The position numbers and the translations under genes were made by a program. Source: a virus (taxonomy: Duplodnaviria; Heunggongvirae; Uroviricota; Caudoviricetes). Taken from it: 64,000 bases of DNA. The notes beneath the pieces were generated by a model. The model was not told the origin of the DNA and did no database searches. It was given only the letters and a program-made list of their open reading frames with translations. The stretch lies in IMG/VR virus record IMGVR_UViG_3300033747_000014, one strand, 5' to 3'. Shown here piece by piece: positions 14,461 through 53,814 of this stretch. Numbering within the stretch: the stretch's first letter is position 1; the number at the start of each line of letters is the position of its first letter.

Positions 14461-15675
14461 ATGTTGAAAGCTATTAAAATAAGATTATACCCTAATAATG
14501 GTCAAGAGATTTATATGAATAAACTTCTTGGTTCTTATAGATTTGTATATAATCAATCTCTTAATTTTGCAATTCAACAATATAAAGAAGATAAAAAATC
14601 TGTAAATATTAAGATATTAGGTAATTTTTTATTTCAAAATCTTTTAAAAAATGAAGAACTTCACTTTCTTAATGAACACAATACTAAAGTATTAAATCAA
14701 ACACTAATAAATCTATTAGATTCATATAAAAGATTTTTTATTAATGGAAATGGATTTCCTAAATTTAAATCGAAAAATAATAATCAACAATCTTGCAGGT
14801 TCCCTGCACAAGCAATTAGTAAAAATAATGATTATGAATCAGGAAGATTAACATTAACTAAACAATTAAAGAATCTAAAATTTAGATGTTCAAAACAATA
14901 TAAAAAACAATTAAATGAATCAATAGTTAAATCAGCAACGTTAACTAAAACTAAATCTAATAAATATTATCTATCTATATTAGTAGAAACTGAATTAAAT
15001 AAACAATTACCAGAATCTAATAATATTATTGGTATTGATTTAGGAATTAAAGATTTTATTATCACTTCCGAAGGTGAAACCTTCGACAATATTAAAATCA
15101 AACGAAACAATCAAAAGAAGATTGCTAAATTACATAGAAAATTAAGTAGAAAGAAAAAAGGAAGTAATAATAGAAACAAGGCAAAAATTAAATTAGCAAA
15201 ATATTATGAAAAACTAAACAATAAGAAAGAATATTATTTACATAAAATTAGCAATAAATTACTAAACGAAAACCAAGTTATAGTAATGGAGTCTTTAAGT
15301 GTAAGTAATATGGTTAAGAATCATAAATTAGCTAAATCTTTACAAGAACTTAGTTTATATAGATTTAAGGAAATCTTAAGATATAAATCTAGTTGGTATG
15401 GAAGAGATTTAGTAGAAATAGATAGATGGTTTCCTTCAAGTAAATTATGTAATAACTGTGGATATAAGAATAATGGTTTGACTTTAAAGGATAGGACATG
15501 GATATGTCCAGAATGTAGTAAAAGTCATGATCGAGATATTAATGCAGCAATAAACATAAAGAAAGAGGGAATAAAGATATTAACAAATAAAGTACCTGAT
15601 AGTATCGGGGAATTAACGCTTCAGGAGAGTAGTCTGTTAGGATCTCGAAGAATGAAGAAGAATAATTTTCTATAA
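14461..15675 (+). mobile_element. tnpB: IS200/IS605-family TnpB (OrfB) RNA-guided nuclease gene, copy 1
   Basis: 404 aa. RuvC-I IGIDLGIKDF, RuvC-II VIVMESLSV, zinc ribbon CNNCGYKN...CPECSKSHDRDINAAINI with RuvC-III Asp. No adjacent tnpA. Confidence 0.8.
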
Positions 15676-25367: not shown

Positions 25368-26018
25368 TTAATCAATACCAATAAAAAGATCAAATAAATC
25401 ACCAGATGAAATTGTATCATCATCTTTTACTTCATCATTATTATTAGGTTCAAAATCATTATCAATATCGTCTTCAATATTATTTATCTTGGCTCTTTCC
25501 TCTTCTTGAATAGAAGCAATAATTTTATATAGTTCACCATTACAAATATTAAAACCTTTCTTTAAGTATCTAACCATTCTACTAGTAGTAGATAAAGGGT
25601 ATGTTATCTTATTAATCATTAATTGTCTCTTTGCAAGATCAATAAATGATGTATCTCCAAAATACACATCATCCTTATCAACAGCAAACATTGAAACAGT
25701 GAAATCAAAATTATTAATGGTTTCTTTTGGATCTTTAAAATATTTTTTAACCAAATCAAAAGTTTTCTTTTTATAAAGAACTTTCATACCATTATCAGAC
25801 TCCCATTTAATCTCAGCATCTTTACCTCTAAAAAACTTTTCAGCTTTTTTATATTCATCTTCATTGGGGAAGAATATATCAATATCTGTTTTTACAGGAA
25901 CACCCATAAAATAATCTCTTACAGAACCACCAGCGATCCAACAATTAATTTCTTCATTTATTAATTCTGTTAGGATCACTTCTTTAAATTTCTTTATACA
26001 ATTATCTATTTGTATCAT
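25368..26018 (-). CDS. pol-beta superfamily nucleotidyltransferase, CCA-adding-enzyme head-like
   Basis: IAGGSVRDYFMGVPVKTDIDIFF carries the GGxVRD...DxD signature of tRNA nucleotidyltransferase/poly(A) polymerase heads. At 216 aa it is only a head domain. Confidence 0.5.
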   Translation of the reverse strand: MIQIDNCIKKFKEVILTELINEEINCWIAGGSVRDYFMGVPVKTDIDIFFPNEDEYKKAEKFFRGKDAEIKWESDNGMKVLYKKKTFDLVKKYFKDPKETINNFDFTVSMFAVDKDDVYFGDTSFIDLAKRQLMINKITYPLSTTSRMVRYLKKGFNICNGELYKIIASIQEEERAKINNIEDDIDNDFEPNNNDEVKDDDTISSGDLFDLFIGID

Positions 26019-26215: not shown

Positions 26216-27088
26216 TTATAAATGTTCTATATTTAAACGATTTTCAATTATTTCAATATTTTTATAATCATTGTCCATAAGAATGTATTGTCTGTTAGTG
26301 TTTTCACAAGCAACACCAGTAGTTCCTGATCCTGCAACATTATCCAATACTATTTCACCTTCATTTGTGTAAGTTTTAATTAACCATTCAATACATTGTA
26401 CAGACTTTTCAGTTCTATGTAACGCTTTGCTTGGATGAGGTTTCTGATAACTAATAATAGTTTTAGGATACTTTAATGTTTCTCCAGCTCTACTATCATC
26501 GCCCTTTCCATACTTACCATAGTTGTTATTTATTTCATCTTTATCTATATATGATTTACCTTTAGAATGTAATGGTTTACCTTTAACCATTTGAGGGTTA
26601 TATGTTGGTTGTTTCTTATAAAAAATGCCAATTTGTTCATGAACCCTTAATGGTTTTCTTTTAGCATTTAAGAAATCGGAAACCAAGTGTTTATCCCAAA
26701 CAATATCATATCTAAAATTAGATAAATTAGAATTAACCATTTCAGTGTAAAATTTACCTTGACCAAATAAAGCAATTACACCATTATCCTTTATAATTCT
26801 GTTATAATGAGTCCAAAGACCATCTTTTTTATGATAATTAAAAAATTTTAGAACAATATCACGAGGGTTACCCATTTTATATTGATATAATAAATATTCA
26901 TCTAAAGTTACATTCTTAAATTTACCCGGACGATATTCAAATTCAAGATAATCCTCAAAAGGTATTTTCACATCTAATTTGTTTTGTGTTACAGCATAGG
27001 GTAAATCTGCACAAACCATATCAATAGATTTATCTGGTATATTATACATTAATTTAGTACAATCTCCATAATACAATTCTTTTCTCAT
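26216..27088 (-). CDS. DNA methyltransferase, beta-class (N6A or N4C)
   Basis: Motif IV VCADLPYAV near N-terminus, motif I VLDNVAGSGTTGVACE near C-terminus. Confidence 0.6.
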   Translation of the reverse strand: MRKELYYGDCTKLMYNIPDKSIDMVCADLPYAVTQNKLDVKIPFEDYLEFEYRPGKFKNVTLDEYLLYQYKMGNPRDIVLKFFNYHKKDGLWTHYNRIIKDNGVIALFGQGKFYTEMVNSNLSNFRYDIVWDKHLVSDFLNAKRKPLRVHEQIGIFYKKQPTYNPQMVKGKPLHSKGKSYIDKDEINNNYGKYGKGDDSRAGETLKYPKTIISYQKPHPSKALHRTEKSVQCIEWLIKTYTNEGEIVLDNVAGSGTTGVACENTNRQYILMDNDYKNIEIIENRLNIEHL

Positions 27089-27130: not shown

Positions 27131-27571
27131 TTAATATTCCAACAAATTAATTGCTTTTTTTTTATCTATTTTTTCACTATAATATCTTGGAATTTGTTTA
27201 CTTTCACTAATTCTTATGGATATTCTTTCTATTAATAAATTTTGATCTTCCTTTGATGGAATGTAATTATTCATATATTTATTTGGAATAATTTTTAATC
27301 TATCCTCATCAAATTCGTAAAATTTATTGTATCTATTATAATATTCTTCTCGTAATAGTTGATGCCTATCTTTCAAATAATCACATTTATTATAAAAGAA
27401 AGTTACATGTCCACTACCCAATTTAAATTTGGGTGGGATATTTATTATTAATTTATTTTCCTTAATTTTTTTTATTACCGCAGTAAATATTCTGGGTAAC
27501 TCTCTTAGTTCAGCAATTAAATGTTGATCTGTTAATTTGATTGGTTCAATCCCACAATTAATTCTTGTCAT
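27131..27571 (-). CDS. denV: pyrimidine-dimer DNA glycosylase (T4 endonuclease V / DenV homolog)
   Basis: MTRINCGI...LTDQHLIAELRELPRIF...LGSGHVTFFYNKCDYL closely parallels T4 EndoV ([28 protein letters not shown]...GAGHVTFFYDK). Confidence 0.8.
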   Translation of the reverse strand: MTRINCGIEPIKLTDQHLIAELRELPRIFTAVIKKIKENKLIINIPPKFKLGSGHVTFFYNKCDYLKDRHQLLREEYYNRYNKFYEFDEDRLKIIPNKYMNNYIPSKEDQNLLIERISIRISESKQIPRYYSEKIDKKKAINLLEY

Positions 27572-28311: not shown

Positions 28312-28342
28312 GAATGTAATTTGAAACACTAAACTTAACAAT

Positions 28343-28549
28343 ATGAAAAAGAATAATTTGAAGAACGAACAGCAATGTACTATACATGATGTCAGTATTA
28401 GTTCATTGGTTGAAAAATCTAGAATTGAAAATGCTGAAAATGGACGTAAAATGTATAGTAATATAAATAAAGCAACAAAGGACATTGAACCTTTTGAAAA
28501 TAAAGCATTTTTAGAAATGGTTGGTGCTGTTATGTATGCTTTGAATTAA
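28343..28549 (+). CDS. hypothetical protein
   Basis: 68-aa ORF. Confidence 0.25.
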   Translation: MKKNNLKNEQQCTIHDVSISSLVEKSRIENAENGRKMYSNINKATKDIEPFENKAFLEMVGAVMYALN

Positions 28550-28582
28550 TACTAACGTTTACAAATAAAAACAGTAACGGAT

Positions 28583-28780
28583 ATGAAAAACGAAATAATA
28601 TTTATAGCAGAACAGCTTAATTGTGGAGATATAAGTGAAAAAGAAGCAATAAGAGAGTTATTGGTTTTATTTGGTGTTAGCAATATCTTACGTAGATTAA
28701 AAAATCATGCAGAAATATATAGCTATCCAAGTAAAAGTTTTAAACTAAAGCTGAAAAAATTCATAAGCGATTATTGCTAA
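28583..28780 (+). CDS. hypothetical protein
   Basis: 65-aa ORF, last gene before the GC-richer island. Confidence 0.25.
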   Translation: MKNEIIFIAEQLNCGDISEKEAIRELLVLFGVSNILRRLKNHAEIYSYPSKSFKLKLKKFISDYC

Positions 28781-29232
28781 CGCTTTGTGTAAGATTTGAA
28801 GCGTAAACCACTACACTTGATTAAATGCGTAAAACGCCATATTGCGCTTTTAATCTTACAGTTTGTTATGGCGAATTAATTTAAAGACATGATAGATATT
28901 GAAAAATCAACAAAAGAAGAACTAATTAAGGAGTATGAATTAGTGACTGTTGATACTTGGAGTAAGTATAGTTGCGATTGTTTGGGGTTTTATATATCAG
29001 CCCTTCATCGCAAAATAGTAGAACTTGGTGGATGGCTTTAATTCACTATAACGAATGGTTGTATGTGTTCGGTTTTGCCACACACATACTCCGATTCAAA
29101 GCGATAAAGCCAATTAGCAAAACTGACATATACAACGTGTTAGCAGTAGTACAGATTTAAACCACAAATTGTTCAATCGAAGAACTGAACCTTTTTCTTT
29201 TTTTGTGTGGAGGGAAAAATAAAAATTGAATA

Positions 29233-30030
29233 ATGAAACGAAATATAATTTATAACGAAGATTGTAAGATTACCTTGAAAAGACTTCAAGATAAATCTAT
29301 TGATGGTATAATCACATCACCACCATATAACATCAATACAGAAAGAAGTGATTGCTATTACAACAATGGTTATTCTGAATTGGATGGTTTGAGTGAGAAT
29401 GATTACCTTGAAGTTAGAACAAATGAATTTAAAGAATTTTCAAGAGTGATAAATGATACTGGCGTAATTTGCTACAACATATCTTATGCAAAAGAAAATC
29501 CAATTTTACCAACATTATTAGTTGCGAAAATTCATAATGAAACTGATTTAACTATTGCAGATATTATTTGTTGGAAGAAACCAAATGCAATACCTTTTCA
29601 GACTTCACCGACCAAATTAAGTAGAATAACTGAATTGATTTATGTTTTTGTAAAAAAAGAGCATTTACACACATTCAAAACCAACAAGGAAGTAAGTAAG
29701 GTAAATGAAAAAACAGGGCAGAAGTTTTACAAAAACTATGTGAATTACATTGAAGCACGAAATAATGATGGATACAAATCTCAATTAAAAGCATCATTTT
29801 CACAAGATTTGGTAAACCAACTTATAAACATTTACTTTCCAAAAGGTAGTTTGATTTATGAACCTTTTACTGGAATAGGAACTACGCAACTAAGTTGTAT
29901 TGAAAATGATTGTGATTATATTGGTAGCGAATTAGTAAAAGACCACTATGAAATTGCTTTAAAAAGGGTGGAAGAAAAAAGAAAAGAAAAAGAGAACACG
30001 CCACAAACTTTATTCGATGAACCGAACTAA
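29233..30030 (+). CDS. DNA methyltransferase, beta-class (SPPY motif; N4C or N6A)
   Basis: Motif IV IITSPPYNI then C-terminal motif I EPFTGIGTTQLSC. Preceded by AAAATTGA 3 nt before ATG. Confidence 0.7.
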   Translation: MKRNIIYNEDCKITLKRLQDKSIDGIITSPPYNINTERSDCYYNNGYSELDGLSENDYLEVRTNEFKEFSRVINDTGVICYNISYAKENPILPTLLVAKIHNETDLTIADIICWKKPNAIPFQTSPTKLSRITELIYVFVKKEHLHTFKTNKEVSKVNEKTGQKFYKNYVNYIEARNNDGYKSQLKASFSQDLVNQLINIYFPKGSLIYEPFTGIGTTQLSCIENDCDYIGSELVKDHYEIALKRVEEKRKEKENTPQTLFDEPN

Positions 30031-30107
30031 GCACTTGTGGCTAACGAAAATAATATGGGGTGATTGCCCTTAAAAATTAGTAGGAACTTAATAAAATATA
30101 ATGACTT

Positions 30108-30320
30108 ATGAATACAGATAAATCAACAACAGAGAACGGCAATTTGCCTATATTTAGTGTTAGGCAACGTTTATTGAATAGAATGAATGAGTTTATAAAA
30201 CAATATGAAATAATGGGACTATACCCCAATGAATTATATACATTAATGAGTAGTTATGCACACATAAACAAATTAGAATATGATATGGAAACACATACTG
30301 ATTTGTTAAATGTTGCTTAA
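30108..30320 (+). CDS. hypothetical protein
   Basis: 70-aa ORF in GC-richer island. Confidence 0.25.
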   Translation: MNTDKSTTENGNLPIFSVRQRLLNRMNEFIKQYEIMGLYPNELYTLMSSYAHINKLEYDMETHTDLLNVA

Positions 30321-30377
30321 CGTGCTATTGTAAGAATAGTAGCCGATTTTGAGACACGAATTTTGAAATAATTACAA

Positions 30378-30662
30378 ATGTTAAACAAAGTAAATAGCCC
30401 TAATAAACGCACTACAACGGCTATTACTTATATAAATTGTTGTAGTGCGTTTTTAGCGATGGCAAAATATAGAATAAAAGAGTATGATTACGGAACTCGT
30501 AAAAATTATGTAGTACAGCGAAGGTCAATTTTTGGTTTTTGGTACAATCCTGATAATATAGATGGATGCACAACAGGATGGTATGATAGTATGGAAGAAG
30601 CAAAAGAAGTTATAAACCAAAAATTGACACCAACTAAAACGAAGGTTGTGTGGGGTGGATAA
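30378..30662 (+). CDS. hypothetical protein
   Basis: 94-aa ORF. Its 5' end contains a 14-bp-stem hairpin (30404-30452). Confidence 0.3.
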   Translation: MLNKVNSPNKRTTTAITYINCCSAFLAMAKYRIKEYDYGTRKNYVVQRRSIFGFWYNPDNIDGCTTGWYDSMEEAKEVINQKLTPTKTKVVWGG

Positions 30663-30726
30663 CGGTTTGGCTATGTGTAGTGCCGACCTTCAATAAATTA
30701 CTACACTAATTTAAAAGACTAAAACA

Positions 30727-30945
30727 ATGAGTGAAGAACAAAACTTAGAAAACAAAGACAAGGCATTACATATAGGTGGTGTTGTGCGTAGTATTTCGGT
30801 TTACTCTAATTGTGAAGATGAGCGATTAGATTATCGTAAAGATTATGTATTTCACCATTTTATATCTAAACGAAAAGCCTTGATTGAAGATGAAGAAAGC
30901 GGAAAGTTAATGGAAGTGCATTATGCTAACTTTAAATTCTCCTAA
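30727..30945 (+). CDS. hypothetical protein
   Basis: 72-aa ORF. Confidence 0.25.
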   Translation: MSEEQNLENKDKALHIGGVVRSISVYSNCEDERLDYRKDYVFHHFISKRKALIEDEESGKLMEVHYANFKFS

Positions 30946-30976
30946 TATTACGCACAACGGCTAAGTATATGAAGCG

Positions 30977-31297
30977 GTGGCGATTAATAGCTGTAAGATT
31001 GCCAACACGCTTAAACTAATTAAACAGCTAAAAGTGGTTAAAAAGACGTACAACGCCACTGATTTATATACAATGTTGTGCGCAGTACGGATTATGGAAA
31101 TTAAATTTGAAACAGTACAAGAGTTTGTTAGTTGGTTGATTGAAAACCCCACAAAAGAAATTGCAGACGGTTACGGCAGAAAATGGAAATACAGAAACTT
31201 TAAATTCTACTTTAAGGATATTGGAACTAAAGATGAATACCAAGAGGGAATAAAGTGCCTTCACTTATACCAAACTCCTTTGTATGCGCTTTCGTAG
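30977..31297 (+). CDS. hypothetical protein
   Basis: 106-aa ORF. Confidence 0.3.
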   Translation: MAINSCKIANTLKLIKQLKVVKKTYNATDLYTMLCAVRIMEIKFETVQEFVSWLIENPTKEIADGYGRKWKYRNFKFYFKDIGTKDEYQEGIKCLHLYQTPLYALS

Positions 31298-31376
31298 TAT
31301 TGCGCACAACGTGCTGGCGGTATGCACCTGTGCCGCATACAAAGAATGAATTTATCAATTTAAAAATAATTTAGAT

Positions 31377-31619
31377 ATGAAAACCGAACAGACAAATGCA
31401 AAAGACAAAAGGCATGGTGTATTACCGCATGTTAACGGTAGTATTCCGAAGCGGCATAATCATGACCATTTTTGGGTTGAAGATGGTGTTTTATTTGAAA
31501 GCTATAATACCATAAGAGGAATGAGGTATGATGCAATTAAAAATGTTCCGGGAATGCCTGACTTGGATATATGCGGGTGTGCTGCTATAAGCTACATAGC
31601 GAAGGAATATTACCGTTAA
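31377..31619 (+). CDS. hypothetical protein
   Basis: 80-aa ORF. Confidence 0.25.
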   Translation: MKTEQTNAKDKRHGVLPHVNGSIPKRHNHDHFWVEDGVLFESYNTIRGMRYDAIKNVPGMPDLDICGCAAISYIAKEYYR

Positions 31620-31776
31620 CGGTGAGTATATGCGAAGTGCTGACGATAGGAAGCATTGCGTATATACATTGTTGTACACTGTATGGCGACTTAACAGAAC
31701 GAAACTTATACCGAAGCACAGAACTTAGTATTTATTTTTTGTGCGGTGGCAAATATTAATTTGAAAAATTAAAACA

Positions 31777-32487
31777 ATGAAATACTTAGGAAGCAAGAAT
31801 AGAATTGCAAAACATATACTACCAATAATGCTTGAACATAAAACACCTGAAATGATTTGGGTAGAGCCTTTTGTTGGTGGTGCAAATATGATTGATAAAG
31901 TAGAAGGTAAGCGAATAGGTGCAGACTTGAATGAATACTTGATTGAAGCATTGATATTGATTAGGGATAACCCCGAAAAAATACCTGACTTAATAACAGA
32001 GGAAGATTACCAAAAACTAAAACAAGAAATGAGAGTTGATGGACTAACTGGATTTACTGGATTTGCAATGAGTTTTGGTGGTAAATTTTTTGGAGGATAC
32101 AGAAGAGATGTAGCTGGAACAAAAGGGTGTATTGAAAATATGAAAACACAAACCCGAAGAAGTAAGCAAAACGCAATAAAGCAAAGTAAGAATTTAAAAG
32201 GCGTGAAGCTGATTAATTGTAGCTATGATGAATTACCTTTGAATAGTGATAATTGCTTGATTTATTGCGACCCACCATATGAAGGAACGACAAGCTACCG
32301 TGATGGATTTGACCACATTAAGTTTTGGAACTGGTGTAGGGAAATGAGCGACAGAGGACACGTTGTTTTTATTAGTGAATACAATGCTCCTACCGACTTT
32401 AAATGTGTATGGCAAAAAGAAGTAGCCACCACAATAAGCAAGCAACAAGGCAAGAAGGATATTGAAAAACTTTTTATTGCCCCATAA
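31777..32487 (+). CDS. dam: DNA adenine methyltransferase, Dam family (second copy)
   Basis: MKYLGSKNRIAKHILPIM (YxGSK), motif I FVGGANM, motif IV IYCDPPYEGT. Confidence 0.8.
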   Translation: MKYLGSKNRIAKHILPIMLEHKTPEMIWVEPFVGGANMIDKVEGKRIGADLNEYLIEALILIRDNPEKIPDLITEEDYQKLKQEMRVDGLTGFTGFAMSFGGKFFGGYRRDVAGTKGCIENMKTQTRRSKQNAIKQSKNLKGVKLINCSYDELPLNSDNCLIYCDPPYEGTTSYRDGFDHIKFWNWCREMSDRGHVVFISEYNAPTDFKCVWQKEVATTISKQQGKKDIEKLFIAP

Positions 32488-32654
32488 GGGCAAAAGAGGG
32501 AAGGAAAAATAAATACGGTATGATTAGCACTAACCTTGATACGAGAACGGAACTAAGCCATATTGTGTACAACGTTGATGCTGTATGAGGCGTTTTGCCC
32601 TACAAACAGCACTGCACTTGATTAGAATTATAAACTTACAAAACAGTAGAAACG

Positions 32655-33023
32655 ATGAAAAAAGATAGCAAAATGACTTATGACAGCTTGTTAGCATTTC
32701 GTTGCGGTTATAGTCGCAGAGTGATTCTTTTTAGCAGATACGCTTTTAAAATAGCCCGTGATAAAAACGGTAGACGTTGCAATATAGGAGAATTGCATTG
32801 CTCAACAAGCTATACAGATGCACCAATAGCAAAAGTGATACTTAGCTTGTTTAATGGATGGTTGATTGTTATGAATAGGTGCAATGAGATTGATAAGGAT
32901 GATTACGAAAGTGCTTTTAAAATCGATAATGCAATTCGTGATTATAACCTAAATGCAGAGGCTTTACCGCAGAATGTAGGGCTATTTTATGATAGATTAG
33001 TACTTGTTGACTACTGGCAGTAG
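32655..33023 (+). CDS. hypothetical protein
   Basis: 122-aa ORF. Confidence 0.3.
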   Translation: MKKDSKMTYDSLLAFRCGYSRRVILFSRYAFKIARDKNGRRCNIGELHCSTSYTDAPIAKVILSLFNGWLIVMNRCNEIDKDDYESAFKIDNAIRDYNLNAEALPQNVGLFYDRLVLVDYWQ

Positions 33024-33162
33024 CAATGAATGCTAACGGTTAGTATATGAGGCGTTGCCCTCACAAACTTTGATAAAATGAATAAAATTAATTATTTAGT
33101 ATAAACTTAAAAAAGACCACAGAGGCAATGCCTTATATACATTGTTATGTGGCGTTATTTAT

Positions 33163-33417
33163 ATGAAAAATAAAGAGAAGTTAGTATTTACTGATGATTA
33201 TAAAAAAGCGGACAAACTCGGATTGACTGAATTGAATAGATGGGAAGATGGAATCGACCACCATCCGATGAGTGAAAGATTAGTTAGGTTTATGGCAGAC
33301 CATGACTTTAATGACTACAACGATAGTATGTGTATAAAGGTGGGGGGTGATGGTGATAATGGAGAGCAATTAATGTATTTAATGGATGCTTTTTTTGAAA
33401 TGTTGGATAATACTTAA
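33163..33417 (+). CDS. hypothetical protein
   Basis: ORF 33142..33417 trimmed to MKNKEKLVF. Confidence 0.3.
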   Translation: MKNKEKLVFTDDYKKADKLGLTELNRWEDGIDHHPMSERLVRFMADHDFNDYNDSMCIKVGGDGDNGEQLMYLMDAFFEMLDNT

Positions 33418-33482
33418 TGCCACATAACGGATTATAAATGCACTATACATTTGTACATCCACATTAATCATCTATTAGTCAA

Positions 33483-42555: not shown

Positions 42556-42704
42556 AAAATTGTTTAAATATTAAAGTTAAACGATGTTAAAAATAACAAA
42601 AAACTGCACAATAACATTGTGTTGGTTATTGTGCAGAAAATAAATGTGTTAATTTTTTATTCCTAATTGGCTTAGATTATTAATTTAAATTGAATACACA
42701 TATA

Positions 42705-43466
42705 TTTGTGATTCTCTTTCAGAATAAGTTTATTACTACTTTTGGAATGCTTGTCAATAACTATGAATGTGTTGTGATTCCCCTTTGGAATGAGGTTATT
42801 ACTACTATCCAGATAACAACGGTTTACCAAGTCTTTGTTGTGATTCCCTTTCGGAATGAGGTTATTACTATTATTTGTGCTTCTCTGTTGTGTTCCCTGT
42901 TCGTTGTGATTCCCTTTCAGAATAAGTCTATTACTATTATATTCATTCTGGAGGTGCTTATAAGCATCGTTGTGATTCCCTTTCAGAATAAGTCTATTAC
43001 CATTTTTTTAGCCAAAACGGCCTTAGAATCGTCTGTTGTGATTCCCTTTCAGAATAAGTCTATTACCATTCGCAATTCCAGCACCTGCAAGGATTCCACC
43101 GTTGTGATTCCCTTTCAGAATAAGTCTATTACCATTTTCTGTAAATGCACCACCTAAAGAATTTGTGTTGTGATTCCCTTTCAGAATAAGTCTATTACCA
43201 TTATTAGAATTATTAGAAATGTGGGATGAATAGTTGTGATTCCCTTTCAGAATAAGTCTATTACCATTTCCACCATACAGTTTAAAGAATGAAGTATTGT
43301 TGTGATTCCCTTTCAGAATAAGTCTATTACCATTTTTTGATTTACTATATTTTTTAAATAGTCTGTTGTGATTCCCTTTCAGAATAAGTCTATTACCATT
43401 TAGAGGGTGTTATGTCCGAGCCGGATGATGGTTGTGATTCCCTTTCAGAATAAGTCTATTACCATT
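42705..43466 (-). CRISPR. CRISPR array 1: 12 repeats of 36 nt, 11 spacers of 30 nt; leader at high-coordinate end
   Basis: Plus-strand repeat GTTGTGATTCCCTTTCAGAATAAGTCTATTACCATT at 42903, 42969, 43035, 43101, 43167, 43233, 43299, 43365, 43431. Three progressively degenerate copies at 42705, 42771, 42837. Repeats abut conserved ATACCCACATATAAAT. Confidence 0.95.
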
Positions 43467-43573
43467 ATACCCACATATAAATCATTGTTAATGAATAACA
43501 TATTATAAAATTTTGATGAAAAAAATGATTAAATATATGTGATTGGTATGTTATCATGATGAAAATTTTAATT

Positions 43574-44278
43574 CTACTTATATAAATGATTAAATTGTGT
43601 TGTATGTATCACACCAAAACCAGAACCTGTTGATTGTCCAATACCATAATTATATATAGCTTCGGCAACCTTTCTATTTGTTTTAATTCTGATTTGACAA
43701 ATATTTGCACGATTTAAAACATTTTTACTATAAATATTTCTAACCTTATGGCTATTATGATTATCAATAACCAATTCAAAATCATTAAAGTTTAATTTAG
43801 AATCAATTTTTTTGAATTTATTAATAATTTGATTTTTCAAAGCATTAACAAGGTTAGAATCATTAAGAGTATAAAAATTTTCATTTGATTTCCCTTCATC
43901 ATGTTTTTTTAGAATAAACCCAGATGTTAAGGTTTTAAAATAGTTCCATCCATTATAGAATTGCTCTTGAATATAATCAACAGATTTAAAATCCATCCCA
44001 TATCCAATTGTTTTTGCTTCCATTGCTCCAATAAGAATTTTATTTAAAATCTCTTGGTCTGGTGATGTTACAATTAAATACCCACCATTTGGATAGTTAA
44101 TGTGTTTACCATTATCAACGATAACACCACCCTCTAATCTACTAATATTGTAGTTTGATACACCGTTATGATATTCATTATTATCACCAAAACATTTGGT
44201 GTGTATGAATGAATTAACAACGCTAAGGTTATTTGGTACTTTATCAGTATTTGGTGTAAAGTTTATTTTTAATCTCAT
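43574..44278 (-). CDS. cas6: Cas6-like RAMP protein (putative crRNA endoribonuclease)
   Basis: 234 aa. C-terminal glycine-rich loop GIGQSTGSGFGVI typical of Cas6/Cas5 RAMPs. Last gene of cas operon, adjacent to array leader. Confidence 0.5.
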   Translation of the reverse strand: MRLKINFTPNTDKVPNNLSVVNSFIHTKCFGDNNEYHNGVSNYNISRLEGGVIVDNGKHINYPNGGYLIVTSPDQEILNKILIGAMEAKTIGYGMDFKSVDYIQEQFYNGWNYFKTLTSGFILKKHDEGKSNENFYTLNDSNLVNALKNQIINKFKKIDSKLNFNDFELVIDNHNSHKVRNIYSKNVLNRANICQIRIKTNRKVAEAIYNYGIGQSTGSGFGVIHTTQFNHLYK

Positions 44279-44292
44279 AACAAATAAGTTTA

Positions 44293-45189
44293 TTAAAATT
44301 TCATTCTTTCATCTGAAATATCAGATACTTTAGTAAATTCATCAATAGACACAGCAGTATCATTTTTTATTGTATCAATCCAAACCAAACCATTATCAAG
44401 TAATGTGGCACTACCTTTGGAATTAGTGTTAAGCACATCAATCATTTCATCAGTAACAGGGACTAATATTTGTCCATGTAAAGATGCAAAATTATCAACA
44501 CCATTTACAGTTGTTCTCGCCAACCTATTTCGTGTACTAGTCATTTTTGATGGATCAGGTTGTTCAAAACTACCGTTTTTATATCGACCAAAAGCATATA
44601 TCAATGCACCACAACCACCTAAATTAGTAATTTTATTATAAAACTCTAATCTACGATTGGTTTCAACATTTTGAACATCATCAACAATTTTCATAAATGG
44701 TTTGGTTTTTGCATCAAAACCAAGACAATAATTTAAATCAGTTACAAATGTATTAAATTTTTCTGAATTATCAATATAATCCTGAACCATTCTCCAATTT
44801 AATGTTATCATCATTGACCAAGCATTATCAAGTGCTTTGTTTGTTTGAATAAATTCCATATGGTAAACATCTTTCTCCAAGAGTTTATTATGAAATTTAG
44901 GTGTATCAATTCTTATGTATGAATTTTGTGCTGCATTAAAATAAACCTCATTACGTTCATAAAATACTTTTCTATTACTAGGTACAGGACGTTCGTTGAA
45001 CAAAACATGTAACATGTTTGATATTTGATGTACTGTTATCGGTTCAACAAAGGGTTCAATATCTTTCCTTTTCTTTATAGTTGAGTTATAAGAGGTGAAG
45101 GAAATATCCTTACACCTCTTGTTATCTGAAACTCTATCTTTTCTGAAAAGTTTTGCATCTTTAAAATTAAGAATCAAATACTTACTCAT
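44293..45189 (-). CDS. Cascade subunit candidate (Cas7- or Cas5-like), unclassified
   Basis: Start trimmed to MSKYLILNF to avoid a 65-nt overlap. Contains GGCGALIYAFGRYKNG. Position matches a backbone or Cas5 subunit. Confidence 0.4.
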   Translation of the reverse strand: MSKYLILNFKDAKLFRKDRVSDNKRCKDISFTSYNSTIKKRKDIEPFVEPITVHQISNMLHVLFNERPVPSNRKVFYERNEVYFNAAQNSYIRIDTPKFHNKLLEKDVYHMEFIQTNKALDNAWSMMITLNWRMVQDYIDNSEKFNTFVTDLNYCLGFDAKTKPFMKIVDDVQNVETNRRLEFYNKITNLGGCGALIYAFGRYKNGSFEQPDPSKMTSTRNRLARTTVNGVDNFASLHGQILVPVTDEMIDVLNTNSKGSATLLDNGLVWIDTIKNDTAVSIDEFTKVSDISDERMKF

Positions 45190-46237
45190 CTTTTTTCTTT
45201 TTTGATGTTTTCGATTTCTTTTGTTTTTTCTCTTCATCAAGGACACGTTTCATTTCATCCTTAATTTCTTGCCTTTTGATTTTGGCTACTTCAATGTCAA
45301 TTAACTCATAAAACATATATGGATCAAAATCAAGGTTATCAATGTCTTCTTCAGATTTTATTTCAATCCAACCATCTTCATTGTTGAAAGTATCTTCTGC
45401 AGGTTTCTCAACCAGTTTAACTTTCAATGTTTCAACTGTTGCAAAAGCATCTTTCTTTTTAATGTTAATATTAAACACTTTTTTCAATGAGTCTTTAACA
45501 AGTTGAACAACATTTTCCTCACTCAACAACACACCATATTCAGGAATTTCGATTGATGTGTTTTTCATTTGATGATAACCCAATTCTGAATTAAACCCTG
45601 ATAGTTTTTGTGCAAGGAATTGTTTATATAGATGATATTTGTCGGGATTAAATGAATATCTATCAAATACAGAATCACAACTAATAAATTGAAGAGTCAT
45701 TAAATCGATATTACCCATTGCTTCATATTTAATATTACCAATGGTTTCTTTTTGATAATAAGTAGTATCATTCTTATCCGAATCCTCATTTTGAACAACC
45801 TTTTCACCACTACGTGAAAATACTTCAATTTTTGACATTGCATTACAAGTTTGTTCTGCACTACTTAAAGTAATTGCACCTTTTCGTTTAACTGTTTCAG
45901 GTTTATTTGCAAACAAATAACCTCTAACAAGCGAAAGGGGCGATGCAATATAAGAATACAATAATGCATCGTGATGTGCAATGTTTGGGGTTTGAGCGAT
46001 AACATCATGCCTAAACATATTGTTTTTCAATGCATCACTACTGATTTTGAGTTTGTAGGTAATTTTTCCTTCATCATCTTTATACAAATTTTTCTTTGCA
46101 TAAGATACATTTGAATGCCCACCTACGTTTCTTAAATGTGTATCTTTCAACACATATTTTTGATCATTTGAATCATAGTTTACAACACCATGACCATTCA
46201 TTTCCATTTTAAACAAAATGTTCTTTACATTTTTCAT
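45182..46237 (-). CDS. Cascade subunit candidate (Cas7/Cas5/Cas8-like), unclassified, Lys/Glu-rich C-terminal tail
   Basis: 351-aa ORF, first gene after the tandem promoters. Co-operonic with cas6-like and cas3. Confidence 0.4.
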   Translation of the reverse strand: MKNVKNILFKMEMNGHGVVNYDSNDQKYVLKDTHLRNVGGHSNVSYAKKNLYKDDEGKITYKLKISSDALKNNMFRHDVIAQTPNIAHHDALLYSYIASPLSLVRGYLFANKPETVKRKGAITLSSAEQTCNAMSKIEVFSRSGEKVVQNEDSDKNDTTYYQKETIGNIKYEAMGNIDLMTLQFISCDSVFDRYSFNPDKYHLYKQFLAQKLSGFNSELGYHQMKNTSIEIPEYGVLLSEENVVQLVKDSLKKVFNINIKKKDAFATVETLKVKLVEKPAEDTFNNEDGWIEIKSEEDIDNLDFDPYMFYELIDIEVAKIKRQEIKDEMKRVLDEEKKQKKSKTSKKKKDE

Positions 46238-46282
46238 TTTTAAAAAATTTAAGTTAATAAAATATTAATTGTTTTTGATTAC

Positions 46283-46349
46283 GATACAAATATATAAAAC
46301 TTTTTTGAAACAACAAAAAAAATTATACAAATATATAAAACTTTTTTGT
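46283..46349 (-). promoter_or_regulatory. tandemly duplicated TATATTTG promoters (minus strand) driving the cas operon
   Basis: Two copies of ATACAAATATATAAAACTTTTTTG, with CAAATATA at 46287-46294 and 46328-46335. Confidence 0.5.
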
Positions 46350-46435
46350 ATTGTTTTAAAAATCAATTTAATACAATTCCCATATGGTATAAGATTATTA
46401 ATACTATGTTCAAAATAATTGATATACCCAACATC

Positions 46436-46801
46436 GTTGTGATTCCCTTTCAGAATAAGTCTATTACCATTAAAGTTAAGTTTGCATATTAAAAACCTCT
46501 GGTTGTGATTCTCTTTCAGAATAAGTCTATTACCATTAGAAACAGCTTTATTTTGTCCGATCCAACTGTTGTGATTCCCTTTCAGAATAAGTCTATTACC
46601 ATTATATAACTTTTTATCTTTTCCCTCAATGGTGTTGTGATTCCCTTTCAGAATAAGTCTATTACCATTTCTGCCTGTGGTTACTAAACTAACATCAATG
46701 TTGTGATTCCCTTTCAGAATAAGTCTATTACCATTTATCAGGGAAAAAAGAACCACTTTGAGTTGGTTGTGATTCCCTTTCAGAATAAGTCTATTACCAT
46801 T
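46436..46801 (-). CRISPR. CRISPR array 2: 6 repeats of 36 nt, 5 spacers of 30 nt
   Basis: Same repeat at 46436, 46502 (one mismatch), 46568, 46634, 46700, 46766. Followed by the same ATACCCACATATAAAT junction as array 1. Confidence 0.95.
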
Positions 46802-46903
46802 ATACCCACATATAAATATGTGATAAACAGTTATTTAAAGATAAATAATTAAATAAAATTACTTTATTTGTTTGATTAAACGATGGTTTATTTTTCATTT
46901 TTT

Positions 46904-49937: not shown

Positions 49938-50186
49938 TTAAATTATTTTGTTTACATTGTACAGTTTATATGCTCTTTCTATAATATTACTCGCTTTATA
50001 TGGTTCTATTTCTTTGTTAAACAACTTAAACAACCATTTATTTTCCAATTCTGAGTTTTCGAATTTATTACTATTTTCATAAACATTAAAATAAAACTTA
50101 TTCGAAAAGGACTCATAAACTTCTTCATAATATGGAGTGAAGTCGTCAATAGGTATATTAGTTATATATTCATCTAAGTTTTTCAT
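49938..50186 (-). CDS. hypothetical protein
   Basis: 82-aa ORF between the DUF262 and ATPase genes. Confidence 0.3.
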   Translation of the reverse strand: MKNLDEYITNIPIDDFTPYYEEVYESFSNKFYFNVYENSNKFENSELENKWLFKLFNKEIEPYKASNIIERAYKLYNVNKII

Positions 50187-50745
50187 TGTTTAAGTATGTT
50201 TTATATGAGTTTTTTAATGTATTTAAATGATTAATATCTTGTGGTGTATCAAAGAAATTAATTCGTTCAAACCAATCTATTTTTTCTTTATCAGTAAATG
50301 GAGTATTATAATCTTCATATGCTATTTGTGCTTTTATGTGATAATGGTTGAAATATATTTGATATTCTTTTGGTAAATCTTTCAAATAATACAATTCATC
50401 ATCGATGATAATTTCAAATTGGTTATCAAGAAAACCCATCATTGCCGACAATCTTTGTTTACCATCAATAACTTGCAATATATCATCTTTAGTTGATTCA
50501 TCAGTTCTATCAACTAAAGACATAATATGAAGATGTGGAATATACCTATCCATAAAAATAGACATAATCAATTGTCTTTTTTGATGTAAAGACCAAACAT
50601 CACCTCTTTGTAGATTAGCTTCAATAGAAGGTAACCATACATTTAAATCGATTTTCCTATTGGGAAGATCTTTAATTCTTGAAAAGGCTAATTCTGTTGA
50701 TGAAACCTTTAAAGGATTATCTCTTAATTCTTTTAATGTTTTCAT
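50170..50745 (-). CDS. DUF262 / ParB-like nuclease-domain protein (standalone GmrSD N-domain)
   Basis: QRGDVWSLHQKRQLIMSIFMDRYIPHL...VIDGKQRLSAMMGF matches the DUF262 DGQQR core. No DUF1524/HNH half. Confidence 0.6.
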   Translation of the reverse strand: MKTLKELRDNPLKVSSTELAFSRIKDLPNRKIDLNVWLPSIEANLQRGDVWSLHQKRQLIMSIFMDRYIPHLHIMSLVDRTDESTKDDILQVIDGKQRLSAMMGFLDNQFEIIIDDELYYLKDLPKEYQIYFNHYHIKAQIAYEDYNTPFTDKEKIDWFERINFFDTPQDINHLNTLKNSYKTYLNNEKLR

Positions 50746-53692: not shown

Positions 53693-53814
53693 TGGAGATG
53701 GTAGGATTCGAACCCACGACCACGTGCTCCCAATGCAAGTTTTTGATATGCTGTTAATAATCTTAAAAACAGATTATATTAAAATACGTGCTCTACCACT
53801 GAGCTACATCTCCA
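53693..53814 (-). tRNA. tRNA gene with ~49-nt internal insertion (putative intron); anticodon unresolved (TAA/TTA/TTT candidates)
   Basis: Minus strand: acceptor GGAGATG ... CATCTCC-A, D-arm GCTC-AGTGGTA-GAGC, T-arm GTGGG-TTCGAAT-CCTAC. A 49-nt AT-rich insert between D-arm and T-arm contains a 7-bp hairpin ATAATCT-GTTTTTA-AGATTAT and is bounded by GAGCACGT direct repeats. Confidence 0.55.

What the first reader, a model, noticed from the sequence alone, without database searches (positions are those of the whole stretch)
28781..33482. Compositionally distinct island carrying DNA methyltransferases and small ORFs, punctuated by a repeated GCACAACG-type motif and hairpins
From ~28.8 to 33.5 kb GC content rises, intergenic spacers lengthen and the TATATTTG promoters disappear.
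- Gene 3' flanks repeatedly carry TATTRCGCACAACG / ATTGTGTACAACG / ATATACAACGTG and inverted versions (CATTGTTGTACAC, CATTGTTATGTGG). Examples are 30946-30960, 31298-31312, 32560-32574, 29133-29146, 31666-31680 and 33116-33130.
- There is a 14-bp-stem hairpin at 30404-30452 and a 9-bp inverted repeat at 28791/28852.
- The island holds a beta-class MTase (29233) and a Dam MTase (31777).
The gene-motif-gene pattern resembles a cassette array (integron-like or other site-specific system), or a horizontally acquired anti-restriction island with its own transcription or termination signals.
Basis: seen in the sequence. Interest (0 to 1): 0.6.

Follow-up and report, generated by a model that had tools for sequence, protein, structure and literature searches.

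The report
Integron-like gene-cassette array in a jumbo phage
The island is a row of about a dozen small mobile gene cassettes, each bounded by a folded hairpin recombination site like those of bacterial integrons, sitting in a 299-kb phage; it belongs to a widespread, apparently little-described integron-like lineage of Bacteroidota and their phages.

Summary

**What the island is**
- Window 28312-33428 (+ strand, GC 0.33 against 0.255 elsewhere) is a head-to-tail array of about 12 cassettes separated by 11 structured elements of 50-120 nt.
- Each element reads xxxxYTAAC|G, a 4-5 nt spacer, a long imperfect stem, a loop, the return stem, 1-2 nt, then TGTTRxxxx.

**Evidence**
- Covariance models built only from unrelated contigs find 11 full-length hits in the 64-kb window. 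All are on the + strand and inside the island (E 2e-11 to 2e-4).
- The GTTR arm of element n is complementary over 9-17 nt to the YAAC arm that follows the next gene, not to its own arm. This is the footprint of circular cassettes.
- One cassette (32574-33037) recurs at 99.6% identity in an unrelated contig. Homology breaks exactly at the two AAC motifs, and the cassette lies next to a 275-aa Xer-like tyrosine recombinase.
- Homologues of that recombinase carry chains of 3-13 such cassettes in phage-like contigs and in Bacteroidota chromosomes.
- The recombinases lack the IntI-specific insertion.
- In phage arrays the hairpin lies upstream of its ORF, the reverse of classical cassettes.

**Limits**
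- No recombinase is seen in the window.
- One site of this family was already called attC in Polaribacter phage P12002L.

The parts
28312..28390 (+). 5'-truncated first element: loop, 3' stem arm and a degenerate R' box (TGTC AGTATTAGTTCA at 28390). It lacks the 5' arm and marks the left edge of the array.
   Evidence: Partial R2 hit at 28319-28388, 17.5 bits, E 0.29. 28391 GTCAGTATTAGTTCA is complementary in 13/15 positions to the R'' at 28540-28556. Sequence read. Low confidence.
28343..28549 (+). Cassette ORF, 68 aa, unknown function.
   Evidence: ORF lists. No Pfam or PHROG match.
28547..28685 (+). attC-like element B0 (R'' ..ATACTAAC|G; R' TGTTAGCAATA).
   Evidence: R2 48.0 bits, E 3.7e-7, full length. 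Its R' is complementary 10/10 to the next R'' at 28772-28781.
28772..28874 (+). attC-like element B1, short class.
   Evidence: R1 43.5 bits, E 2.8e-6; R2 35.2 bits. Fold -27 kcal/mol, z -2.5.
28889..29041 (+). Cassette ORF, 50 aa, bracketed by GTTATGGCGAATTAA and TTAATTCACTATAAC.
29043..29148 (+). attC-like element B2, short class.
   Evidence: R1 41.9 bits, E 5.9e-6; R2 39.5 bits. Fold z -3.0.
29233..30030 (+). Cassette ORF: N6/N4 DNA methyltransferase, 265 aa.
   Evidence: PF01555, E 2.5e-27.
30036..30168 (+). attC-like element B3, long class. Its loop holds the ATG (30108) of the next ORF.
   Evidence: R2 40.8 bits, E 9e-6. R' 30159 is complementary 13/15 to R'' 30307-30321.
30108..30320 (+). 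Cassette ORF, 70 aa, unknown. Its TAA stop lies inside the R'' box.
30312..30448 (+). attC-like element B4. It contains a nested perfect 14-bp hairpin at 30405-30452.
   Evidence: R2 70.0 bits, E 2e-11. Hairpin I12. The chain is broken here: its R' does not match the next R''.
30459..30662 (+). Cassette ORF, 67 aa (94 aa if it starts at 30378), unknown.
   Evidence: Weak match to phrog_24605.
30654..30790 (+). attC-like element B5, long class. Its loop holds the ATG at 30727.
   Evidence: R2 58.7 bits, E 3e-9. R' 30781 is complementary 14/15 to R'' 30944-30958 (I13, 27).
30727..30945 (+). Cassette ORF, 72 aa, unknown.
30949..31084 (+). attC-like element B6.
   Evidence: R2 65.1 bits, E 2e-10. 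Fold -45.7 kcal/mol, z -4.5.
31073..31297 (+). Cassette ORF, 74 aa. Its ATG lies in the ATGTT of the R' box. Bracketed by GTTGTGCGCAGTAC and GTATTGCGCACAAC.
   Evidence: (1/300 shuffles reach the score).
31301..31440 (+). attC-like element B7, long class. Its loop holds the ATG at 31377.
   Evidence: R2 54.3 bits, E 2e-8. R' 31431 is complementary 16/17 to R'' 31604-31620 (I2, 27).
31377..31619 (+). Cassette ORF, 80 aa, unknown. Its TAA stop lies inside the R'' box GTTAAC.
31611..31680 (+). attC-like element B8, short (50-nt body).
   Evidence: R1 35.7 bits, E 1e-4; R2 33.5 bits.
31777..32487 (+). Cassette ORF: D12-class (Dam-like) adenine methyltransferase, 236 aa. Bracketed by GTTGTACACTGTATGG and CCATATTGTGTACAAC.
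   Evidence: PF02086, E 5.7e-18. Complementarity 15/17.
32564..32699 (+). attC-like element B9, long class. Its loop holds the ATG at 32655. This is the first part of the cassette shared with L264.
   Evidence: R2 40.6 bits, E 1e-5. The 99.6% match to L264 starts at 32571.
32655..33023 (+). Cassette ORF, 122 aa (phrog_4301, unknown function).
   Evidence: Homologues in 4 other contexts keep the R'/R'' pairing through compensatory changes.
33028..33153 (+). attC-like element B10.
   Evidence: R2 59.3 bits, E 2.5e-9; R1 42.2 bits. The L264 match ends at 33037, the AAC of its R''.
33142..33417 (+). Cassette ORF, 84-91 aa, in frame with the TTG of the R' box.
33415..33482 (+). Terminal R'' box (TAATGCCACATAAC|G) followed by AAC|GGATTATAAATG, a possible remnant of the attI-like motif. 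This is the right edge of the array; no hairpin element follows.
   Evidence: Complementary 13/14 to R' 33144. No CM hit after 33153. attI-like consensus YTAAC|TAnTATATATA in relatives. The remnant reading is inference.

Best explanation
Window 28312-33428 is an array of about 12 integron-type gene cassettes, with no recombinase gene in sight (a 'CALIN').

**Cassette structure.** Written on the gene-sense strand, each cassette is G, a spacer, a 5' stem arm, a loop, a 3' stem arm, TGTTRxxxx (R'), the ORF, then x'x'x'x'YAAC (R'').

**Circular form.** In a free circular cassette, R'' and R' pair and close the hairpin into a complete attC-like site.

**Inferred mechanism.**
- A small Xer-like tyrosine recombinase, supplied in cis in related elements, recombines the folded single strand at or inside AAC.
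- In this phage the recombinase would come from elsewhere in the 299-kb genome, from a co-infecting phage or from the host.
- The partner is another such site or a recombinase-proximal attI-like site (YTAAC|TAnTATATATA), so cassettes are inserted, excised and exchanged.
- The reactive, best-folding strand is the + strand of the window.

**Phage versus bacterial arrays.**
- In bacterial chromosomal arrays of the same family, that strand is antisense to the ORFs, which is the classical integron geometry.
- In phage arrays the ORFs are inverted. The hairpin precedes its gene, and in the long (~120 nt) class it carries the gene's start codon and first ~20 codons in its loop and 3' arm.

**Cargo.** Two orphan DNA methyltransferases plus small unknown proteins, plausibly counter-defence or host-takeover accessories.

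**Shown:** site family and structure, array organisation, cassette footprint, one cassette moved between contexts, and linkage of the site family to the recombinase family.

**Inferred:** the single-stranded DNA mechanism, the exact cleavage position, which enzyme acts in this phage, and the cargo function.
For: 1. **Independent detection.** Models R1 and R2 were built only from elements beside recombinase homologues in unrelated viral contigs. They give 11 full-length hits in the window, all on the + strand within 28547-33153, at 33-70 bits and E 2e-11 to 2e-4. The best hit elsewhere scores 22 bits and is partial.

2. **Structure.** 25 pairs, 18 of them with compensatory changes. TAACG...TGTTA is invariant. 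The G.T wobble at AACG/TGTT is present in 37/37 sequences.

3. **Cassette footprint.**
- In the window, R'n pairs with R''n+1 over 9-17 nt in 9-10 of 11 junctions, but with its own R''n over only 3-5 nt.
- In relatives the median perfect run is 10 against 4 (n=144).
- Reconstituted circle junctions fold with 9-16 closing pairs, summing to -456.6 against -339.2 kcal/mol in situ.

4. **Mobility.**
- Window 32571-33037 matches L264 1649-2115 at 99.6%, with unrelated flanks and breakpoints at the two AACs.
- Other whole-cassette matches between arrays also start and end at TAAC(G).
- Five homologues of the 122-aa protein keep R'/R'' complementarity through compensatory changes: GTTAGCATT/AATGCTAAC, GTTATCAT/ATGATAAC, GTTAGCGGT/ACCGCTAAC. 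Two distant homologues lack both boxes.

5. **Recombinase linkage.**
- L264 carries a 275-aa Phage_integrase/SAM_4 protein directly after its last cassette.
- In 46 viral loci with both flanks, there are 188 footprint hits upstream on the same strand, against 10, 6 and 13 in the other three compartments. 28 loci have at least 3 hits.
- In 25 bacterial loci there are 66 hits downstream on the opposite strand, against 0, 4 and 2.
- R1 finds 31/31 hits on that strand in 16 Bacteroidota loci.
- A conserved YTAAC|TAnTATATATA lies just upstream of the viral recombinase genes.

6. **DNA rather than mRNA.** The wobble-favoured strand is sense to the ORFs in phage arrays (199/231) but antisense in bacterial arrays (93/103). 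Its polarity therefore follows the array and recombinase, not transcription.

7. **Precedent.** One element of this family in Polaribacter phage P12002L (30062-30010, minus strand) was published as P12002L_attC1 in a phage CALIN carrying MTase cassettes (PMC9892861).
Against: - No recombinase is present in the 64-kb window (tblastn; Pfam context) or in 10 kb further upstream. The other ~225 kb of the genome could not be read.
- The island is 100% identical in 8 contigs from other samples, so there is no sign of ongoing turnover in this phage.
- Only one cassette of the window was found elsewhere.
- The associated recombinases lack the IntI-specific domain.
- P12002L_attC1 was the one phage site that IntI1 failed to recombine (PMC9892861). 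Recombination of this site family has therefore never been demonstrated.
- Two junctions break the footprint (30439/30663; weak at 29139/30045).
- Many 'viral' comparison contigs are IMG/VR predictions, not isolates.
- Elements share sequence, so part of the exchange could be homologous rather than site-specific.
Confidence: 0.8

Rival explanations
1. The hairpins act in RNA, as transcription terminators, RNase III-type processing sites or mRNA stabilisers and translational regulators that separate the cistrons of an acquired gene block. On this view they are not recombination sites.
For: - The stems fold well as RNA (z -2.5 to -4.5).
- G-U pairs are conserved on the gene-sense strand in phages.
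- Long-class loops hold start codons, so folding would occlude translation starts.
- attC sites are themselves reported to be weak terminators (PMC9892861).
Against: - No terminator-like site (stem plus T run) coincides with any element.
- In bacterial arrays the same elements fold best on the strand antisense to the ORFs.
- Complementarity between boxes 100-900 nt apart across translated ORFs, kept by compensatory change, is hard to explain in RNA terms.
- Homology breakpoints fall at AAC, and the elements are tightly linked to a tyrosine recombinase.
- An RNA role could still exist as a secondary function.
Confidence: 0.07
2. A PeSL-like hyperplastic region. The repeated promoter/stem-loop modules are only patches of homology, and ordinary homologous or illegitimate recombination shuffles small genes through them with no dedicated site-specific enzyme.
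For: - Elements of different cassettes share 88-100% identical stretches from AAC to TGTTA.
- No recombinase lies near the window's array.
- T4-type phages shuffle ORFs in this way (my own knowledge of Arbiol et al. 2010, not checked here).
Against: - Homologous exchange does not predict that R'n is complementary to R''n+1 but not to R''n.
- It does not predict an invariant TAACG/TGTTA with a conserved wobble.
- It does not predict the fixed position and strand of arrays relative to a recombinase gene and an attI-like motif.
Confidence: 0.1
3. Inert or selfish repeats: MITE-like hairpin elements, or IS200/IS605-type palindrome-associated elements linked to the two TnpB genes of this phage, which happened to accumulate in one region.
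For: - Two TnpB genes are in the window.
- IS200/IS605 elements insert 3' of a short target and use subterminal hairpins (my own knowledge).
Against: - There are no CM hits near either TnpB gene or anywhere outside the island.
- Units have one hairpin, not two.
- The elements are tied to a tyrosine recombinase, not to an HUH transposase.
- All elements share one orientation and there is one per gene.
Confidence: 0.03

Closest known systems
Clusters of attC sites lacking an integrase (CALINs) in phage genomes (Qi et al. 2023, PMC9892861), especially Polaribacter phage P12002L
   Same: - An array of small co-oriented ORFs separated by attC-type hairpins in a virulent-type phage, with no integrase nearby.
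- DNA methyltransferase cassettes are present.
- The published P12002L_attC1 is a member of the same element family (R2 hit, identical sequence).
   Different: - Here there are 11-12 sites rather than 2.
- The family is defined by its own consensus.
- The hairpin belongs to the downstream gene.
- The family is linked to an insertion-less Xer-like recombinase.
- P12002L_attC1 did not recombine with IntI1.
Sedentary chromosomal integrons, particularly the 'inverted integrase' group (intI co-oriented with cassettes)
   Same: - R''/L''/L'/R' hairpin sites with YAAC/GTTR cores and 50-140 nt length.
- The cassette footprint is present.
- One strand folds preferentially.
- The recombinase sits at the attI end of the array.
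- Bacteroidota chromosomal members have the ORF-then-site order and a co-oriented recombinase.
   Different: - The recombinase lacks the about 33-aa IntI-specific domain that contacts extrahelical bases.
- The sites have an asymmetric internal loop (4-5 nt against 1-2 nt) and fixed G.T wobbles instead of recognisable extrahelical bases.
- Phage arrays carry inverted ORFs with their starts inside the site.
PeSL (promoter-early stem-loop) modules of T4-type phage hyperplastic regions
   Same: Small accessory ORFs in a phage early-type region, each associated with a repeated stem-loop-containing intergenic module. Modular shuffling is proposed.
   Different: - PeSLs are thought to act through homology.
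- They have no AAC/GTT core, no cassette footprint and no recombinase linkage.
- This comparison rests on my own knowledge and was not tested here.
Xer-dependent pdif modules of Acinetobacter plasmids
   Same: Discrete gene modules bounded by sites for Xer-type tyrosine recombinases.
   Different: - pdif sites are 28-bp double-stranded dif-like sites in alternating orientation.
- Here the sites are 60-140-nt hairpins, all in one orientation.
- This comparison rests on my own knowledge and was not tested here.

Membership tests
Integron cassette array (attC sites / CALIN) | Imperfect inverted repeats R''-L''...L'-R' with conserved AAC (R'') and GTT (R') cores, able to fold as a hairpin, 57-141 nt long. 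| tested here: met
   TAAC...GTTA is invariant. 25-pair consensus hairpin, 18 pairs covarying. Window bodies are 50-120 nt. 11 CM hits. The full RYYYAAC/GTTRRRY consensus is only partly matched (YAAC/GTTR).
Integron cassette array (attC sites / CALIN) | Cassette footprint: the box at one end of a cassette is complementary to the box at its other end rather than to the partner box of the same site in the array. | tested here: met
   Window: 9-10 of 11 junctions. Relatives: median run 10 against 4. Reconstituted junctions fold better.
Integron cassette array (attC sites / CALIN) | At least two sites in the same orientation, less than about 4 kb apart, separating mostly single ORFs. | tested here: met
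   11 sites on the + strand within 4.6 kb, with one ORF between successive sites.
Integron cassette array (attC sites / CALIN) | The ORF precedes its attC; the crossover is at G|TT of R', at the 3' end of the cassette in the ORF-sense orientation. | tested here: not met
   - In the window and in phage-type arrays, homology breaks at AAC|G on the ORF-sense strand, so the hairpin goes with the downstream ORF.
- This is equivalent to the classical crossover only if the ORFs are regarded as inverted.
- Bacterial members do meet the feature.
Integron cassette array (attC sites / CALIN) | Extrahelical bases and an unpaired central spacer that give strand selectivity. | tested here: inconclusive
   An asymmetric internal loop and fixed G.T wobbles favour one strand. 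No clear extrahelical bases are seen. IntegronFinder and HattCI are not available here.
Integron cassette array (attC sites / CALIN) | Sites are recombined by an integron integrase. | not testable with these tools
   The only experimental datum concerns P12002L_attC1, a family member, which was not recombined by IntI1 (PMC9892861).
Complete integron | An adjacent intI: a tyrosine recombinase with the IntI-specific additional domain around patch III. | tested here: not met
   - No tyrosine recombinase is in the window.
- Recombinases next to related arrays lack VchIntIA residues ~211-243.
- They score 136-243 bits against the 265-bit TIGR02249 cut-off; their best family is NF040815, XerA-type.
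Complete integron | An attI site next to the integrase where cassettes enter. | tested here: inconclusive
   A conserved YTAAC|TAnTATATATA lies between the last cassette and the recombinase ATG in viral relatives. The window has only a possible remnant at 33426-33440.
Intrinsic terminators / RNA processing hairpins | A G+C-rich stem followed by a T run at gene 3' ends, on the transcribed strand. | tested here: not met
   None of the 5 terminator-like sites coincides with an element. The folding strand is antisense to the ORFs in bacterial arrays.
IS200/IS605-type palindrome-associated elements | Subterminal hairpins at both ends, with a TnpA (HUH) or TnpB association. | tested here: not met
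   There is one hairpin per unit. No CM hits lie near the TnpB genes at 14461-15675 or 60521-61702.

The most novel reading that the evidence does not exclude
The window exposes a distinct and so far essentially undescribed integron-like system of Bacteroidota and their phages.

- Its recombinase is a roughly 270-aa Xer/XerA-like tyrosine recombinase that never acquired the IntI extra domain.
- It works on attC-like hairpins marked by TAACG/TGTTA, fixed G.T wobbles and an asymmetric internal loop.
- Bacteria use the system in the classical cassette orientation.
- Phages have turned the cassettes around, so each hairpin carries the start of its own gene. They use the arrays as exchangeable stores of very small accessory genes (methyltransferases and unknowns, probably counter-defence).
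- This would be a second, independent or ancestral, solution to integron-type single-strand recombination, and a phage counterpart of the bacterial 'biobank of defence cassettes'.
Probability: 0.45. Interest if true: 0.85.

Novelty: new variant of a known kind. Interest (0 to 1): 0.72.

Why it matters
**The kind is known.** Integron cassette arrays are established, and a few attC clusters in phages have been published.

**What may be new.**
- Integrons are reported as almost absent from Bacteroidetes (PMC9024848), and IntI is defined by its extra domain.
- Here, one site family links a jumbo phage, an isolated Polaribacter phage, dozens of viral contigs and at least 13 Bacteroidota chromosomal loci to recombinases without that domain. 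The recombinase family itself has more than 550 hits in Bacteroidota genomes.
- If these enzymes do recombine the hairpins, several things become testable:
  - how integron-type single-strand recombination can work without the IntI domain, which bears on how integrases evolved from Xer proteins;
  - a large cassette metagenome that attC/IntI-based tools miss;
  - whether phages keep and trade counter-defence genes as cassettes.

**Practical use.** The TAACG...TGTTA models give a way to delimit hundreds of tiny phage genes as discrete mobile units.

Tried and rejected
- **Rfam.** No family matches the elements, at gathering or at E<=10 thresholds. Only spurious miRNA/CRISPR-DR hits below threshold appeared.
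- **Near and distant DNA search of isolated phages.** Only the MTase genes match, and there is no syntenic relative.
- **Relatives found through the flanking RNA-ligase-like gene** (7 viral loci, 43-57% identity). There is no synteny with the island, so this was uninformative.
- **Two short DNA-pattern scans of viral contigs**. These gave mostly chance single hits, although a few (L181, L117, L055, L046) later proved to be real arrays.
- **My first manual model of alternating 'full' and 'half' sites.** It was wrong: the 3' arms of the 'half' sites lie inside the next ORF.
- **Simple gene-flanking inverted repeats or target-site duplication.** Rejected because only AAC is shared between successive left boundaries.
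- **Terminator reading.** Rejected.
- **Looking for the recombinase in this phage.**
  - Nothing in the window or 10 kb upstream.
  - The look-up for the right edge failed.
  - None of the top 120 homologue clusters has this phage's 299,394-bp contig as its longest contig.
- **Systematic breakpoint statistics on HSPs of 200 nt or more.** Only 13 distinct HSPs were available, which is too few. 5 ends and 2 starts fell at AAC and none at TGTT.
- **Literature.** Searches found no description of this lineage. The library is not exhaustive.

Full report
**Context**

The window is part of a low-GC (25.5%) jumbo phage. It carries 14 tRNA genes, two CRISPR arrays with a type I-F-variant cas set, two TnpB genes, several orphan methyltransferases and lysis-type genes. 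It is identical to NCBI assembly GCA_902731355.1, contig CACVIQ010000001.1 (299,394 bp), at about 163-227 kb. No isolated phage in the reference collection is close to it.

**Checking the observation**

- GC rises to 0.33 in 28312-33428, against about 0.257 in both flanks.
- Intergenic gaps are 57-167 nt in the island and mostly under 30 nt elsewhere.
- TATATTTG is absent from the island.
- The quoted motif coordinates are right, with one small offset.
- AACGG is seven-fold enriched, and AACG is strand-specific, 30 copies against 10 for CGTT.
- Both methyltransferases are confirmed.

**Anatomy of the elements**

- Every gene in the island is followed, within 0-75 nt and often overlapping its TAA stop, by xxxxYAAC|G.
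- Downstream of each such box lies a stem-loop, then TGTTRxxxx.
- In half of the cases the 3' stem arm and the TGTT box lie inside the 5' part of the next predicted ORF. This is why a naked-eye reading sees only 'half' sites.
- The decisive regularity is that the GTTR box of element n is complementary over 9-17 nt to the YAAC box that follows the next gene, 100-900 nt away. Pairing with the YAAC box of its own element is limited to AACG/TGTT.
- That is the signature expected if each unit was once a circle whose two ends closed one hairpin, and was linearised by a crossover at AAC.
- Joining each R''n+1 to element n in silico raises the closing stem from 0-12 to 9-16 pairs. Summed folding energy goes from -339 to -457 kcal/mol.
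- Two junctions are exceptions. Element B4 (30312-30448) contains a nested perfect hairpin, and the following R'' (30654-30663) has no partner.

**Evidence from elsewhere: homologues of the 122-aa cassette protein**

- Homologues of the 122-aa protein (32655-33023) occur in four other contexts.
- All four keep a GTT box in the codons for the conserved L-L-A/S-F motif and a complementary AAC box after the stop.
- The pairing is maintained by compensatory changes: GTTAGCATT/AATGCTAAC, GTTATCAT/ATGATAAC, GTTAGCGGT/ACCGCTAAC.
- Two more distant homologues lack both boxes.
- One of the four contexts, the 10-kb contig L261 (38% GC), has the whole architecture.

**Evidence from elsewhere: a shared cassette**

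- A metagenome contig, L264, matches the window at 99.6% over 467 nt only, window 32571-33037. That span runs from the AAC before element B9 to the AAC after the ORF. The flanks are unrelated.
- In L264 this unit is the last of four units bounded by AAC|G. Two of the others are copies of a gene-less 120-nt element.
- The unit is followed after 52 nt by a 275-aa tyrosine recombinase on the same strand.

**Linkage to a recombinase family**

- I wrote a simple detector: an AACG site whose 5' flank is complementary to a TGTT site 40-1600 nt upstream. It finds 8 hits in the island, 1 elsewhere on the + strand and none on the - strand.
- Viral contigs carrying homologues of the L264 recombinase (38-92% identity):
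  - Hits form uninterrupted chains of 3-13 units on the recombinase strand, ending just before its start codon.
  - Counts are 188 hits there, against 10, 6 and 13 in the three equal-sized control compartments.
  - 28 of 46 loci have at least 3 hits.
  - A conserved YTAAC|TAnTATATATA lies between the last unit and the recombinase gene.
- Bacterial genomes:
  - The recombinase family has more than 550 hits in genome contigs, almost all in Bacteroidota such as Flavobacteriaceae, Cytophagales and Bacteroidales, with a few in other phyla such as Chlorobiota.
  - There the chains lie downstream of the gene on the opposite strand: 66 hits against 0, 4 and 2. 13 of 25 loci have at least 3 hits.

**Independent models**

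- From 147 non-identical elements taken only from those viral contigs, I aligned the ~80-nt and ~120-nt classes.
- The consensus hairpin has 25 pairs, 18 with compensatory substitutions. TAACG and TGTTA are invariant. G.T wobbles sit at fixed positions.
- The two covariance models, searched without filters over both strands of the window, return 11 full-length hits. All are on the + strand within 28547-33153, at 33-70 bits.
- The same models hit several other sources:
  - L261 and L264;
  - other recombinase-less viral arrays;
  - 16 Bacteroidota loci, with 31/31 hits on one strand;
  - the isolated Polaribacter phage P12002L.
- One P12002L hit is, base for base, the site published as P12002L_attC1 in a phage CALIN with two MTase cassettes (PMC9892861).

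**Which strand, and DNA or RNA**

- The wobble pattern makes one strand the better folder.
- In phage-type arrays that strand is sense to the ORFs (199 of 231 cassettes). In bacterial arrays it is antisense (93 of 103).
- The polarity is therefore tied to the array and its recombinase, not to transcription. This argues for a single-stranded DNA substrate, as in integrons, where the strand antisense to the ORFs recombines.
- None of the terminator-like sites found in the island coincides with an element.
- Seen from the classical attC orientation:
  - The bacterial members look like ordinary chromosomal integrons with a co-oriented integrase.
  - The phage members, this window included, have every ORF inverted, so the site precedes its gene.
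  - In the ~120-nt class, 62 of 86 elements hold an ATG about 60 nt before the GTT box, from which the cassette ORF reads through the 3' arm. In the ~80-nt class the ORF starts after the box.
  - The window shows both classes.

**The recombinase**

- It has the Phage_integrase and SAM_4 domains.
- Its best solved relative is archaeal XerA, followed by VchIntIA. The VchIntIA alignment skips residues ~211-243, which is the IntI-specific domain.
- Nine array-linked homologues score 136-243 bits on the integron-integrase model (cut-off 265). Their best match is NF040815, whose NCBI name is 'site-specific tyrosine recombinase/integron integrase'.
- The family therefore fails the defining test for IntI, although its genomic behaviour is integron-like.
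- It may be relevant that IntI1 did not recombine P12002L_attC1.

**Cargo**

- In the window: two DNA methyltransferases and nine or ten proteins of 50-122 aa without informative matches.
- Among 150 cassette ORFs from the viral arrays (median 85 aa), only eight Pfam families are hit, four of them DNA methyltransferases.
- A counter-defence or host-takeover role is plausible but is inference.

**What remains open**

- No recombinase is visible in the window or 10 kb upstream.
- The island is invariant in eight contigs from other samples.
- In this phage the array may therefore be served in trans, or be a quiescent record of past captures.
- The cleavage position within AAC, the single-strand mechanism and the activity of the insertion-less recombinase are all inferred.
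- I found no paper describing this lineage in six searches. IntegronFinder 2.0 reports integrons as nearly absent from Bacteroidetes. The library is incomplete, so the novelty is stated with caution.

**Verdict**

- The feature is real.
- I file it as a new variant of a known kind: a phage CALIN of a Bacteroidota-type, IntI-domain-less, integron-like family with inverted, self-starting cassettes.

Noticed in passing
window 42704-43487 and 46369-46822; cas genes 43574-49207 (- strand): The phage carries its own CRISPR-Cas. Two arrays (12-13 and 7 repeats of the 36-nt GTTGTGATTCCCTTTCAGAATAAGTCTATTACCATT, period 66) flank Cas6, a 314-aa gene, a Cas7fv-like gene and Cas3 (type I-F variant).
   Followed up: partly
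window 14461-15675 (+) and 60521-61702 (-): Two TnpB (OrfB_IS605 / Cas12f-like) genes. The first sits inside the tRNA gene cluster. No hairpin elements of the island family lie near them.
   Followed up: partly
window 53693-53813 (-): Rfam calls a tRNA spanning 121 nt (53.7 bits) that ARAGORN does not report. It may be a tRNA gene with a long insertion or intron.
   Followed up: no
window 1202-2077, 25368-26018, 26216-27088, 27131-27571, 50170-50745: Further defence or counter-defence-type genes lie outside the island: a second D12 MTase, a Gad2-like protein, a third N6_N4 MTase, a DenV (Pyr_excise) endonuclease and a GmrSD_N-domain protein.
   Followed up: no
window 30405-30452 and 30654-30663: A perfect 14-bp hairpin (AAACGCACTACAAC / GTTGTAGTGCGTTT) is nested in element B4, and the next R'' box has no complementary partner. 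This is the one place where the cassette footprint is broken. It may be a scar of an excision or of an internal rearrangement.
   Followed up: partly
L264 936-1058 and 1531-1650: Two copies of a 120-nt GC-rich, gene-less unit, bounded by AAC|G like a cassette, sit in the array next to the recombinase. There is no Rfam match and the function is unknown.
   Followed up: partly
L267-L346, 10-60 nt upstream of the recombinase start codon: A conserved motif YTAAC|TAnTATATATA lies directly after the last cassette. It is a candidate attI-like primary site. The window has AAC|GGATTATAAATG at 33426-33440, possibly a remnant.
   Followed up: partly
Loops of the elements (alignments A2, A3; window 28808, 30698, 32610): The loops share an A/T-rich box (ACTTTAAATTTAG / CACTACACTTGATTAAAT-like) in both phage and bacterial members. 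It could be a promoter or a protein-binding site.
   Followed up: no
L428 (Polaribacter phage P12002L) 30002-30062, 32217-32287, 32791-32931, 38029-38096, 38873-38942, 39116-39251 (-) and 14496-14631 (+): This isolated phage has at least seven sites of the same family, mostly beside its methyltransferase genes. That is more than the two attC sites published for it.
   Followed up: partly
L260 2694-3075: A 33-kb phage with compact intergenic regions and no hairpin elements still keeps the complementary GTTATCAT / ATGATAAC boxes around its copy of the 122-aa gene, as if a cassette had been fixed and its hairpin lost.
   Followed up: partly
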